Positions 13,820 through 14,975 of a stretch of DNA of 64,000 nucleotides are shown in pieces. Numbering within the stretch: position 1 is the stretch's first letter; the number at the start of each line of letters is the position of its first letter. The notes under the pieces were generated by a model, which ran no database searches, was not told the DNA's origin, and was given only the letters and a program-made list of their open reading frames with translations. The DNA lies in the IMG/VR virus record IMGVR_UViG_3300045988_158846, positions 49,605 to 113,604 of that record, one strand, 5' to 3'. This DNA is from a virus. Position numbers and translations under genes: made by a program.

Positions 13820-14975
13820 CGTTTTTTATTTATTGGACTATATTTTTCACGATAATTTACTGAGAGCATTTTAATTCAATTATCGCTAGAACATCTTTCA
13901 GATGGTGCTTATCTCCATCTTACATAATAGTCTCTACACATTTAATCTTTATTTATCTATTTCCAATAATAACCTTTATATAGAGTATTTTCTTTTATAG
14001 CTTTATCTAACTAAGTATGTCCTTTTAATCCTAAAAATTCTAATACAGCAGTTTTAGCATTAAAAATTTGAATTAAATTATTATTTTTATCATACATAGC
14101 AATTTTTTTACCATTGATAGCTTTATCGCCTTTTTTACCATACATACCATTTTTATTTCCTAATGTCTTGCCAATACTATTAATAGACATTTTTTGTTTT
14201 GATTCAATAGTATGATGTTTACCATACATCCCATTATTTTCTCCAGATGTTAATTTGCTCATTTTATTTTTAAATTCTGGAGTTTTATAAATTGAATTAT
14301 CTCTTTCAAATTCAGCCCAATATGATAAAAATGATTTTGTTTCTTCGCTATGCTATTTACCATACATTCCATTATTTTTACCACGATTTAATTCACTTAA
14401 TTTTCTTTTTAAAGCTTCTTTTTCTTCTTTGGTGTATCCAGCAGTAGTATTGCCACCTTCTCCGCCTTCATGGATATTATAAAACAATGGATTAGATACT
14501 GCATTATATAAGGTTATAAAATATTTTTCTTTTTCATTATTTTCTTCGTTATTATTTGAAATAAATAAAATGGACTTAGTAAAATTTTCTTTTCCATACT
14601 TATCAATAGCTCTTTTTAAAATTTTGCCACTTCCTAAATATGAATCATCTAATTCTCCATAATGTTTTCCGATATATTTCATACCATTTATATTATTTGT
14701 AGTTAAATAAATATAATGTTGTTTCATTACTAAACAACTCCTTTCATAATTATTTAACTTTTAGAATTAGACAATGACTTGACTTTGTCCAAGATTTTTA
14801 GCACGGTATTATCAATCTATCCATTTTCAGGACATAGACTCTCTTAGTCAGTTGATTCGCTCTTAAAATTAATTAAGACTTATTTCGCTGATACCGTTAG
14901 CCTGCATTAAGCAGACACCCATTAAGCAATGGTTAATGTTCTTTTTTTACAACTGCCCAATATCAATATTAGACT
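13820..14975 (-). mobile_element. group I intron in dnaE carrying a GIY-YIG homing endonuclease
   Basis: Exon 1 ends ...GAA CTG CCT (U at the 5' splice site). The intron's terminal G precedes exon 2 GAT ATT GAT. The splice restores the in-frame DnaE consensus ...FLNKERAELP|DIDID (compare E. coli SMPDFDVDF). The flanks are structured and non-coding. Confidence 0.6.
14011..14727 (-). CDS. GIY-YIG homing endonuclease with NUMOD3 repeats (I-TevI-like), intron-encoded
   Basis: N-terminal motif HYIYLTTN...KYIGKH. It has three NGMYGK(K/H)H NUMOD3 repeats. The TAG at 14353 is read through. Confidence 0.7.

What the first reader, a model, noticed from the sequence alone, without database searches (positions are those of the whole stretch)
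13820..14975. Three group I introns with paralogous GIY-YIG homing endonucleases split dnaE, the dnaB-like helicase and topoisomerase II subunit B
Splice junctions can be placed to the nucleotide in all three introns. Each exon 1 ends in U, each intron ends in G, and splicing restores invariant motifs:
- dnaE: ELP|DIDID.
- dnaB-like: YVF|HDYIH.
- GyrB-like: DADV|DGAHI.

The dnaB and topoisomerase introns share long conserved core blocks (GTTTCCCACGGGATTC...GTTCCCCGTTAGC and GCGTATCAATAGC...GGGGATAGTCGATACAGGTT), so they are recent paralogues that have spread within this genome. Their HEGs share a distinctive C-terminal domain (...WSGK...IMPEVFT) with a free-standing HEG just upstream of dnaE (16343-16912). 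That is the presumed source of intron-invading HEG copies. The dnaE intron is a different subtype carrying an I-TevI-like NUMOD3 enzyme.

The topoisomerase is also T4-like in having a separate B subunit, but here it is split by an intron rather than by the gene 60 bypass.
Basis: partly seen in the sequence, partly recalled or inferred. Interest (0 to 1): 0.6.

Follow-up and report, generated by a model that had tools for sequence, protein, structure and literature searches.

The report
Three mobile introns split phage replication genes
Three essential DNA-replication genes of an uncultured, amber-recoded phage are each interrupted by a group I-type intron that carries its own homing-endonuclease gene; this is a well-resolved but ordinary example of a known kind of selfish element.

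Summary
On the minus strand, 13820-14975 (dnaE), 23920-24945 (dnaB-like helicase) and 36017-37069 (GyrB/ParE-like topoisomerase subunit) are precise insertions. Closely related phage contigs carry uninterrupted alleles that join exactly at the predicted nucleotides. HEG-less copies of about 260-350 nt sit at the same sites in other contigs.

Each insert has group I anatomy:
- a P1 helix with a U.G pair at the 5' splice site, and a terminal G;
- a P3/P7 pseudoknot, P4-P6 and P8;
- IA-type P7.1/P7.2 helices;
- a GIY-YIG ORF in the P6 loop.

Covariation is strong: 92.9% of cells pair in 35 dnaB/topo-type cores, and 99.6% in 6 dnaE-type cores. The internal guide sequence covaries with the exons.

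- Rfam Intron_gpI finds none of the three, even in HEG-less copies. That model is insensitive here.
- The dnaB and topoisomerase introns are not recent intragenomic copies. Each is closer to same-site introns in other phages.
- The HEGs are only 28-43% identical to each other.

The HEGs are rich in in-frame TAG, read as Gln, which probably delays their translation. That idea is already published. Verdict: new members of a known kind. Splicing itself is untested.

The parts
14976..16346 (-). dnaE exon 1 (PHP domain and N-terminal part of the Pol III alpha catalytic domain); ends ...ERAELP
   Evidence: ORF list; Pfam on the spliced protein; intron-less alleles
13820..14975 (-). dnaE group I-type intron, 1156 nt, the flagged element. 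Elements: P10 strand 14959-14964; guide sequence GGGCAGUU 14951-14958; P3 5' strand 14935-14941; P3.1 14919-14932; P3.2 14901-14915; P4 5' strand 14891-14897 and 3' strand 14803-14809; P6 5' strand 14791-14796 and 3' strand 13944-13949; P7 5' strand 13927-13932; P7.1 13900-13920; P3 3' strand 13889-13895; P8 13849-13886; P7 3' strand 13836-13841; terminal G 13820
   Evidence: Sequence; element coordinates; fold of the HEG-less L211 copy; 99.6% pairing with 18 compensatory pairs
13942..14727 (-). Intron-encoded GIY-YIG plus NUMOD3 homing endonuclease ORF, 261 aa, with 3 in-frame TAG. It lies in the P6 loop, and its last codons and TAA stop lie in the P6 3' strand
   Evidence: the ORF is conserved to its end in L245, L210, L202 and L480, with TAG aligned to Gln codons
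11234..13819 (-). dnaE exon 2; starts DIDIDLAPSKR (catalytic aspartates) and ends at a TAG. The next in-frame TAA is at 11213
16343..16912 (-). Free-standing GIY-YIG HEG, 189 aa with 1 in-frame TAG, overlapping the dnaE start codon. It shares the KLTxEEV...IMPEVF domain with the dnaB and topoisomerase intron HEGs
   Evidence: absent in L119, L120, L121 and L123, present in L122
24946..25979 (-). dnaB-like helicase exon 1; ends ...GIKYV + TT
23920..24945 (-). dnaB-like group I-type intron, 1026 nt. Elements: guide GACA 24919-24922; P3 5' strand 24909-24913; P3.1 24892-24905; P4 24864-24869 with 24833-24838; P6a 24821-24826 with 24082-24087; P7 5' strand 24067-24071; P7.2 24016-24038; P3 3' strand 24006-24010; P7 3' strand 23949-23953; P9 23929-23944; terminal G 23920
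24084..24761 (-). dnaB-intron GIY-YIG HEG, 225 aa from the ATG at 24761, with 3 in-frame TAG and a C-terminal HTH; lies in the P6a loop
23421..23919 (-). dnaB-like helicase exon 2; starts T + HDYIHTSMK
37070..38565 (-). GyrB/ParE-like topoisomerase subunit exon 1; ends ...IIMSDAD + GT
36017..37069 (-). Topoisomerase-B group I-type intron, 1053 nt. Elements: guide GCGU 37056-37059; P3 5' strand 37046-37050; P3.1 37029-37042; P4 36966-36971 with 36935-36940; P6a 36917-36927 with 36185-36195; P7 5' strand 36169-36173; P7.2 36118-36141; P3 3' strand 36078-36082; P7 3' strand 36046-36050; P9 36026-36041; terminal G 36017
36183..36893 (-). Topoisomerase-intron GIY-YIG HEG, 236 aa with 6 in-frame TAG. 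Its C-terminal codons and TGA stop lie in the P6a 3' strand
   Evidence: match to the I-TevI catalytic domain 1MK0 at E=7.7e-5
35614..36016 (-). Topoisomerase-B exon 2; starts C + DGAHIKNLFY
62537..62608 (-). tRNA with anticodon CUA (amber suppressor), needed to translate the TAG-containing HEGs
   Evidence: Rfam tRNA hit at 38.9 bits with anticodon loop CUCUAAA; not called by ARAGORN

Best explanation
The three inserts are group I (IA-type) introns that are removed from the pre-mRNA by the standard two-step transesterification.

Splicing (inferred from structure):
- An intron guide sequence pairs with the last exon-1 bases to form P1, with a U.G wobble at the cleavage site.
- For dnaE, a neighbouring stretch pairs with the first exon-2 bases to form P10.
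- The core (P3-P8, with P7 as a pseudoknot, plus P4-P6) binds guanosine, and the terminal intron G marks the 3' splice site.
- Splicing restores the ELP|DIDID, YVF|HDYIH and DADV|DGAHI motifs.

Mobility (inferred):
- Each intron carries a GIY-YIG homing-endonuclease gene with its own ribosome-binding site in the P6/P6a loop.
- The enzyme would cut intron-less alleles in co-infecting relatives, so that repair copies the intron in (homing).

Shown here: precise insertion relative to intron-less alleles, HEG-less and HEG-containing forms at the same site, conserved structure with compensatory changes, and intact HEG ORFs under TAG=Gln.

Not shown: catalysis, independence from protein cofactors, endonuclease activity and target.

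Because about half of the HEGs' Gln positions are TAG while the host genes have almost none, HEG translation probably waits for the phage amber-suppressor tRNA.
For: 1. Precise indels. Intron-less alleles at 97-100% aa identity join at the predicted bases.

2. HEG-less copies at the same sites.
- dnaE: L211 (98% identical, 305 nt, L6 = GGAA) and L237/L548.
- dnaB: L013. Topoisomerase: L046.

3. dnaE-type structure on 6 sequences.
- 78 pairs are 99.6% paired, against 29-42% when partners are slid.
- 18 pairs show compensatory changes.
- These include P1 (exon CUG to CUA with guide GGGCAG to GGGUAG in L480) and P10 (GAUAUU/GAUAUU to GAUGUU/GACAUU in L211).

4. The minimum-energy fold of the HEG-less L211 copy recovers P1, P3 enclosing P3.1, P3.2, P4-P6 and P7.1, then P8 (z=-3.5).

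5. dnaB/topoisomerase-type structure on 35 cores.
- 92.9% of cells pair, against 77% when shuffled and 35-44% when slid; 33 of 52 pairs are compensatory.
- P3 is 96.6% paired.
- P7 (GACUA/UAGUC) and P7.1 are invariant.
- RNAalifold independently finds P7, P7.1, P7.2 and P9.
- Permutation tests for P3 and the L3.1-L7.2 loop pairing reach the observed value 0/5000 times.

6. One family member, L019 9031-9265, matches RF00028 at 36 bits, E=1.4e-5. This places the GCUAACGGGG...AAUCCCGUG and CGACUA...AGAUAGUC blocks on P4, P7 and J8/7.

7. The HEGs are GIY-YIG. The dnaE HEG ORF is conserved through its TAGs, with TAG aligned to CAA/CAG.
Against: - Rfam Intron_gpI does not match any of the three at E<=10, nor the HEG-less dnaE-type copies at E<=1.
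- P1 of the dnaB and topoisomerase introns is only 4 bp.
- The dnaE-type intron has no P9 hairpin; only 8-21 nt follow P7.
- No transcript or in vitro data are available.
- The GIY-YIG match of the dnaE HEG is below Pfam's cut-off.
Confidence: 0.92

Rival explanations
1. They are group I-derived intervening sequences that no longer self-splice. They would depend on a protein cofactor (the HEG acting as maturase, or a host factor), or be partly decayed.
For: - No RF00028 match.
- Short 4-bp P1 in two of the introns.
- The dnaE type lacks P9.
Against: - The host genes are essential and intact after conceptual splicing.
- Helices are maintained by compensatory changes across lineages.
- HEG-less forms persist at 98% identity to HEG-containing ones, so the HEG protein is not needed in cis.
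Confidence: 0.05
2. They are genes in pieces. A free-standing HEG inserted into each gene, and the halves are translated separately and assemble, as with T4 genes 39/60 or the Aeromonas phage Aeh1 nrdA split (recalled from memory).
For: Each insert carries a HEG, and exon 1 runs into an in-frame stop shortly after the junction.
Against: - Exon 2 has no start codon or ribosome-binding site at the junction, and the breaks fall inside catalytic motifs.
- HEG-less inserts of about 260-350 nt occupy the same sites.
- About 300 nt of non-coding flanks are conserved as a covarying RNA structure, including pairing with both exons.
Confidence: 0.02
3. They are another kind of intervening element: a group II intron, an intein, or a translational bypass.
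For: None specific.
Against: - The inserts break the reading frame and contain stops, so they are not inteins.
- There is no reverse transcriptase or domain V/VI pattern.
- At about 1 kb they are far too long for a bypass.
- The P3/P7 pseudoknot topology and the U.G and terminal-G boundaries are group I features.
Confidence: 0.01

Closest known systems
Phage T4 td / nrdB / nrdD (sunY) group IA2 introns with GIY-YIG or other HEGs (I-TevI, I-TevII)
   Same: - Self-splicing-type intron in an essential nucleotide or DNA metabolism gene of a large lytic phage.
- HEG in a peripheral loop, and specifically the P6 loop as in td.
- P7.1/P7.2 helices.
- Core blocks AACGGGGAA...AAUCCCGUG and CGACUAUCCC...GGGGAGUAG resemble the td sequence. 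This is from memory, not tested; blastn against phage GenBank records did not retrieve T4.
- Delayed HEG expression.
   Different: - Host genes are dnaE, a dnaB-like helicase and topoisomerase B.
- There is no P2 between P1 and P3. Instead two hairpins (P3.1 and P3.2) lie between P3 and P4.
- L3.1 forms a covarying 4-bp loop-loop pairing with L7.2.
- HEG control is probably through TAG recoding rather than late promoters or RNA structure.
Group I introns of gut phages with alternative genetic codes and of huge gut phages (Borges et al. 2021, bioRxiv 10.1101/2021.08.26.457843; Jug phages, PMC12363816; crAss-like phages, PMC7886860)
   Same: - Uncultured gut-type phages with many introns in replication and packaging genes.
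- Borges et al. describe an intron endonuclease in an early gene that is enriched in recoded stops, and propose that this delays HEG production.
- The Jug phage paper confirms splicing of predicted phage group I introns with metatranscriptome reads.
   Different: - The Borges case is TGA-recoded (Agate phages); here the recoded codon is TAG, read as Gln.
- The insertion sites and intron families here were not named in the passages I read.
- I did not determine which phage clade the window belongs to.
Rfam RF00028 Intron_gpI
   Same: - Same overall topology.
- One family member (L019 9031-9265) aligns to the full model at 36 bits.
- Other introns in the same phage contigs score 52-87 bits.
   Different: The three window introns and their HEG-less relatives score below E=1-10.
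Inteins in DnaB, DnaE and GyrB (Novikova et al. 2016, PMC4760082)
   Same: - Selfish elements carrying homing endonucleases target conserved catalytic motifs of the same replisome proteins.
   Different: - Inteins are removed at the protein level and are in frame.
- These inserts are removed at the RNA level.

Membership tests
Group I intron | P1 helix between the 5' exon end and an internal guide sequence, with U (U.G wobble) as the last exon base | tested here: met
   - dnaE: AACUGCCU/GGGCAGUU, 8 bp with U.G. The guide covaries with the exon in L480 (G-C to A-U).
- dnaB: UGUU/GACA. Topoisomerase: ACGU/GCGU. Both are 4 bp with U.G, and the guide differs between the two homologous introns in step with the exon.
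Group I intron | Terminal G at the 3' end of the intron, and P10 pairing with the 3' exon | tested here: met
   - All three introns end in G, and so do the dnaE-type homologues despite tails of different length.
- dnaE P10 GAUAUU/GAUAUU is 100% paired, with one compensatory change in L211.
- P10 is weak or unclear for the dnaB and topoisomerase introns.
Group I intron | Core topology: P3 encloses P4-P5-P6 and the 5' strand of P7; P8 follows; the P7 3' strand closes a pseudoknot | tested here: met
   - Minimum-energy fold of the HEG-less L211 copy.
- Pair counts with pseudoknot notation: 99.6% paired and 92.9% paired.
- P3 covaries in both families.
Group I intron | Match to the curated covariance model Rfam RF00028 at or above its gathering score of 50 bits | tested here: not met
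   - No hit in the window at E<=0.1 or at E<=10 on each intron.
- No hit on the HEG-less L211/L237 copies or on L013/L046/L047.
- One relative, L019 9031-9265, scores 36.3 bits at E=1.4e-5.
- Subgroup-specific models, such as those used in PMC12363816, were not available.
Group I intron | GTP-dependent self-splicing and ligated exons | not testable with these tools
   No transcript data or biochemistry. Intron-less alleles show only what the ligated product must be.
Subgroup IA (IA2-like) | Extra helices P7.1/P7.2 between the P7 5' strand and the P3 3' strand | tested here: met
   - dnaB/topoisomerase family: P7.1 UCCCC/GGGGA is invariant, and all 6 counted pairs of P7.2 (helix 9) covary.
- dnaE type has a single such hairpin with 2 compensatory pairs.
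- Assigning these features to IA rests on the review PMC3984707 and on memory.
GIY-YIG homing endonuclease (I-TevI-like) | GIY-YIG catalytic domain plus a DNA-binding module | tested here: met
   - PF01541 scores 33.7-33.8 bits for the dnaB and topoisomerase HEGs, and 30.5 bits for the free-standing HEG.
- The dnaE HEG scores only 19.9 bits, below the 22.6 cut-off, but has NUMOD3 at 62 bits.
- The topoisomerase HEG matches I-TevI 1MK0 at E=7.7e-5; the dnaE HEG has no PDB match to I-TevI.
GIY-YIG homing endonuclease (I-TevI-like) | Cleavage of the intron-less allele near the insertion site | not testable with these tools
   The only indirect evidence is presence/absence polymorphism of the introns among near-identical alleles, plus silent differences next to the dnaE site.

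The most novel reading that the evidence does not exclude
The dnaB/topoisomerase-type and dnaE-type introns may represent an abundant lineage of phage group I introns that Rfam cannot see. It has no P2, two hairpins (P3.1 and P3.2) between P3 and P4, and a covarying L3.1-L7.2 kissing loop that clamps the P3-P7 pseudoknot. The translation of its homing endonucleases would be gated by amber-codon reassignment, tying intron mobility to the phage's late, suppressor-dependent phase. The structure and the TAG enrichment are supported here. What is uncertain is whether this architecture and this coupling are undescribed.
Probability: 0.25. Interest if true: 0.45.

Novelty: new member of a known kind. 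Interest (0 to 1): 0.35.

Why it matters
- **Annotation.** Gene callers using the standard code and RF00028 would report a broken dnaE, helicase and topoisomerase, and truncated endonucleases. The spliced, TAG=Gln reading gives three intact replisome proteins.
- **Detection gap.** A large intron family goes undetected by the general Rfam model. At least 118 viral contigs match a single 15-mer, and most are true homologues, so intron counts in phage metagenomes are underestimated.
- **Experimental material.** Paired intron-plus, HEG-less and intron-minus alleles at 97-100% identity are ready-made for testing homing, and for testing whether stop-codon recoding times endonuclease expression.

Tried and rejected
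- **Rfam.** None gave a hit on the target introns. I rejected this as a refutation because other evidence is decisive and one relative does match.
- **Phage GenBank records.** Megablast of 11-26 kb found no match. Blastn with the HEG-deleted dnaB core found only weak hits in three Enterococcus phages, next to an annotated homing endonuclease and with no intron annotation.
- **Other family members in the window.** An nhmmer profile of the dnaB/topoisomerase family finds only those two copies and does not see the dnaE intron.
- **Metagenome scan.** A P7-based gapped pattern returned mostly unrelated sequences. Only L480 and L548 were true dnaE-type relatives.
- **P3 placement.** I first placed P3 directly upstream of GCUAA-P4, as in td and as the Rfam alignment of L019 suggests. 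I rejected this because no complementary 3' strand exists there, whereas the upstream strand covaries.
- **PDB search with the dnaE HEG.** It gave only spurious TRIM71 hits.
- **Literature.** Searches for introns in phage dnaE, dnaB or topoisomerase found nothing specific.

Full report
**What is there.** All genes in this part of the window are on the minus strand. The window is 30% G+C, and many of its ORFs become continuous only if TAG is read through: summed length of the ORFs listed (>=100 aa, both strands, overlaps included) rises from 13.6k to 21.4k aa. The flagged stretch, 13820-14975, lies between two ORFs. The first ends ...NKERAELP, then runs on into unrelated sequence and a stop. 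The second continues, upstream of its first listed start codon, as DIDIDLAPSKR. Two further interruptions have the same form:
- 23920-24945 in a DnaB-like helicase (...IKYVF / HDYIH).
- 36017-37069 in a GyrB/ParE-like subunit (...SDADV / DGAHI).

In each, a single Pfam domain match runs straight across the junction: DNA_pol3_alpha 366-627, DnaB_C 207-472 and Toprim 413-521.

**The inserts are precise indels.** Searching IMG/VR with peptides that span each junction returned many uninterrupted relatives.
- For dnaE, all 80 loci kept (of 168 relatives) are colinear, and five are 98-100% identical in protein. At the nucleotide level they read ...GAATTGCCT|GATATTGAT... exactly where the window has its 1156-nt insert.
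- The same holds for dnaB (L275-L279, L316) and for topoisomerase B (L355-L357).
- One relative contig, 3300012662_000013, has the topoisomerase intron (L104, 98% identical) but neither the dnaE nor the dnaB intron.

So the three elements come and go independently among near-identical genomes.

**The inserts exist with and without the endonuclease gene.**
- A 15-mer from the dnaB/topoisomerase core matched at least 118 viral contigs, and most are real homologues by blastn.
- Several are compact. L013 sits at the same dnaB site, L046 at the same topoisomerase site (about 350 nt), and L047 two codons downstream.
- The dnaE-type element is rarer and always at the same dnaE site. L245 (99%), L210, L202 and L480 carry the ORF. 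L211 (98% identical, 305 nt) and L237/L548 lack it, with the ORF replaced by a 4- or 8-nt loop.

**RNA structure of the dnaE type.** It has, in order:
- P1: AACUGCCU / GGGCAGUU, with U.G at the splice site.
- A P10 strand (GAUAUU) directly 5' of the guide sequence, complementary to the first six exon-2 bases.
- P3: GAACAUU / GAUGUUC. It encloses two hairpins, P4 (ACGGUAU / AUACCGU), an extended P5, P6 (AAUCUU / AAGAUU, with the ORF in its loop), the 5' strand of P7 (GACUAU) and one P7.1-type hairpin.
- P8, then the P7 3' strand (AUAGUC).
- A short tail ending in G.

The thermodynamic fold of the HEG-less L211 copy recovers all the nested helices (-71.2 kcal/mol, z=-3.5). On six sequences from three lineages, 78 proposed pairs are 99.6% paired, against 29-42% when partners are slid. 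Eighteen pairs show compensatory changes. Two of these concern the exons:
- In L480 the Leu codon is CUA rather than CUG, and the guide is GGGUAG rather than GGGCAG.
- In L211 exon 2 starts GACAUU, and the P10 strand reads GAUGUU.

This is the behaviour expected of a group I internal guide sequence.

**RNA structure of the dnaB/topoisomerase type.** The layout is the same, with P7.1, P7.2 and a P9 hairpin. On 35 HEG-deleted cores, 92.9% of cells pair, against 77% when shuffled and 35-44% when slid. Of 52 pairs, 33 have compensatory changes.
- P3 is 96.6% paired and covaries. Examples are ACACU/GGUGU, AAACU/GGUUU, AGACU/GGUCU and AUACU/GGUAU.
- P4 shows a clean G-C to A-U switch.
- P7 and P7.1 are invariant.
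- RNAalifold independently found P7, P7.1, P7.2 and P9.

The 5' strand of P3 follows the guide sequence directly, and two hairpins lie between it and GCUAA-P4. By the usual naming these are P3.1 and P3.2; P3.1 is listed as an optional group I pairing in PMC3873408. The loop of P3.1 and the loop of P7.2 form a 4-bp pairing that covaries (AUCA/UGAU, ACCA/UGGU, GCCA/UGGC, GUCA/UGAC, UGCU/AGCA). It is 100% paired and reached by 0 of 5000 permutations.

**The Rfam test fails, and why I discount it.** RF00028 gave nothing on the window, nothing on any of the three regions at E<=10, and nothing on the HEG-less relatives. So the long ORF insertion is not the reason. The same searches did find other group I introns in the same contigs at 52-87 bits. 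One member of the dnaB/topoisomerase family, L019 9031-9265, aligned over the whole model at 36 bits (E=1.4e-5). This places the family's conserved blocks on P4, P7 and J8/7. A single general model for a very diverse ribozyme class is a weak negative test. Subgroup models were not available to me.

**The endonuclease genes.** Read with TAG as a sense codon, the intron ORFs are 261, 225 and 236 aa.
- All contain GIY-YIG domains. The dnaE one is below Pfam's cut-off but has strong NUMOD3 repeats.
- The topoisomerase one matches the I-TevI catalytic domain.
- In homologues of the dnaE ORF at 78-95% identity, the frame is conserved to the last codon, and the window's TAG in GHT#LD is CAA/CAG (Gln).
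- A TAG in the helicase motif SAT#LN is likewise Gln in relatives.
- A tRNA with anticodon CUA lies at 62537-62608.
- TAG makes up 12 of 23 Gln-type codons in the three intron ORFs. In the host genes the figures are 0/55 (dnaE), 0/18 (topoisomerase B), 0/20 (topoisomerase A) and 2/19 (dnaB).
- Borges et al. proposed exactly this kind of delay for an intron endonuclease in TGA-recoded phages.

Each ORF has a Shine-Dalgarno-like sequence, and its 3' end overlaps the P6/P6a 3' strand.

**Relationships.**
- The two window members of the larger family are about 72% identical over shared columns and are not each other's nearest relatives. The dnaB intron groups with dnaB-site introns of other phages, and the topoisomerase intron with topoisomerase-site introns.
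- The endonucleases are 28-43% identical among the three intron HEGs and the free-standing one.
- These are therefore old, site-specific lineages, not recent copies made within this genome.
- The ORF at 16343-16912 is truly free-standing and is itself an indel. Whether it seeded the intron ORFs cannot be decided.

**Verdict.** The finding is real and the main interpretation is right: three group I-type introns with GIY-YIG homing endonucleases in dnaE, a dnaB-like helicase and topoisomerase subunit B. Splicing is inferred, not shown. The claims of recent intragenomic spread and of a T4-like topoisomerase are not supported, and the proposed Rfam test is uninformative. This is a new set of members, and possibly new insertion sites, of a well-known kind of element.

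Noticed in passing
window 1-64000; tRNA at 62537-62608 (-): The genome reads TAG as an amino acid: summed length of the ORFs listed (>=100 aa, both strands) rises from 13.6k to 21.4k aa with TAG read-through. 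TAG aligns with Gln codons in relatives. A tRNA with anticodon CUA and an unusual T-loop is found by Rfam (38.9 bits) but not by ARAGORN.
   Followed up: partly
window 61469-61581 (-): There is a full-length RAGATH-33 RNA (139.9 bits, E=1.7e-29). It lies between tRNA-Gly(UCC) at 61234-61307 and a weak tRNA/tmRNA-like match at 61595-61665, near the suppressor tRNA. Its function is unknown.
   Followed up: no
window 62614-63372 (-): A fifth GIY-YIG endonuclease ORF (252 aa, 5 in-frame TAG, C-terminal HTH) ends 6 nt upstream of the amber-suppressor tRNA gene. It is 46% identical in its catalytic domain to the free-standing HEG at 16343-16912.
   Followed up: partly
window 30059-31078 (-); L011, L078, L114: A 339-aa protein has an N-terminal hydrophobic segment, a long coiled-coil-like region and a C-terminal GIY-YIG domain (8 in-frame TAG). 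In other phages its homologue is itself split, after YIGQAVNI, by an intron of the dnaB/topoisomerase family. The window copy is uninterrupted.
   Followed up: partly
L047; L006, L020 and many others; L365, L366: The same intron family uses at least two more sites in the topoisomerase B gene of related phages: DADVDG|SH, two codons downstream, and RMKG|LGEM. The window has neither.
   Followed up: partly
window 11213-11236 (-): dnaE ends in TAG. If this TAG is suppressed, the protein gains six residues (GEAEDE) before a TAA, and the extension overlaps the start of the guanylate kinase gene at 11220.
   Followed up: no
window 23421-25979 (-), codons 13 and 397 of the spliced dnaB-like gene: Unlike dnaE and both topoisomerase subunits, the helicase has two in-frame TAG codons. 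One lies in the conserved SATQLN motif. Not all replication genes are therefore free of recoded codons.
   Followed up: partly
window 51369-53849, 46880-48259, 56362-57498 (-): Three unusual cargo proteins for a phage: one with major-vault-protein shoulder and repeat domains, an SPFH/flotillin-like protein, and an S-layer-homology (SLH) domain protein. The SLH protein hints at a host with an SLH-anchored cell wall.
   Followed up: no
L019 (8638-14969), L045 13597-13856, L211 8797-9091: Related phage contigs hold several further group I introns of other types that RF00028 does detect (36-87 bits). L019 alone has up to seven matches within 7 kb.
   Followed up: no
L555 (Enterococcus phage VRE9_3, PP680569.1, 135743-135823): A cultured Enterococcus phage has a weak match (77%) to the 5' core of the dnaB-type intron. 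It is followed by an annotated homing endonuclease, and no intron is annotated. This is probably an unannotated relative.
   Followed up: no
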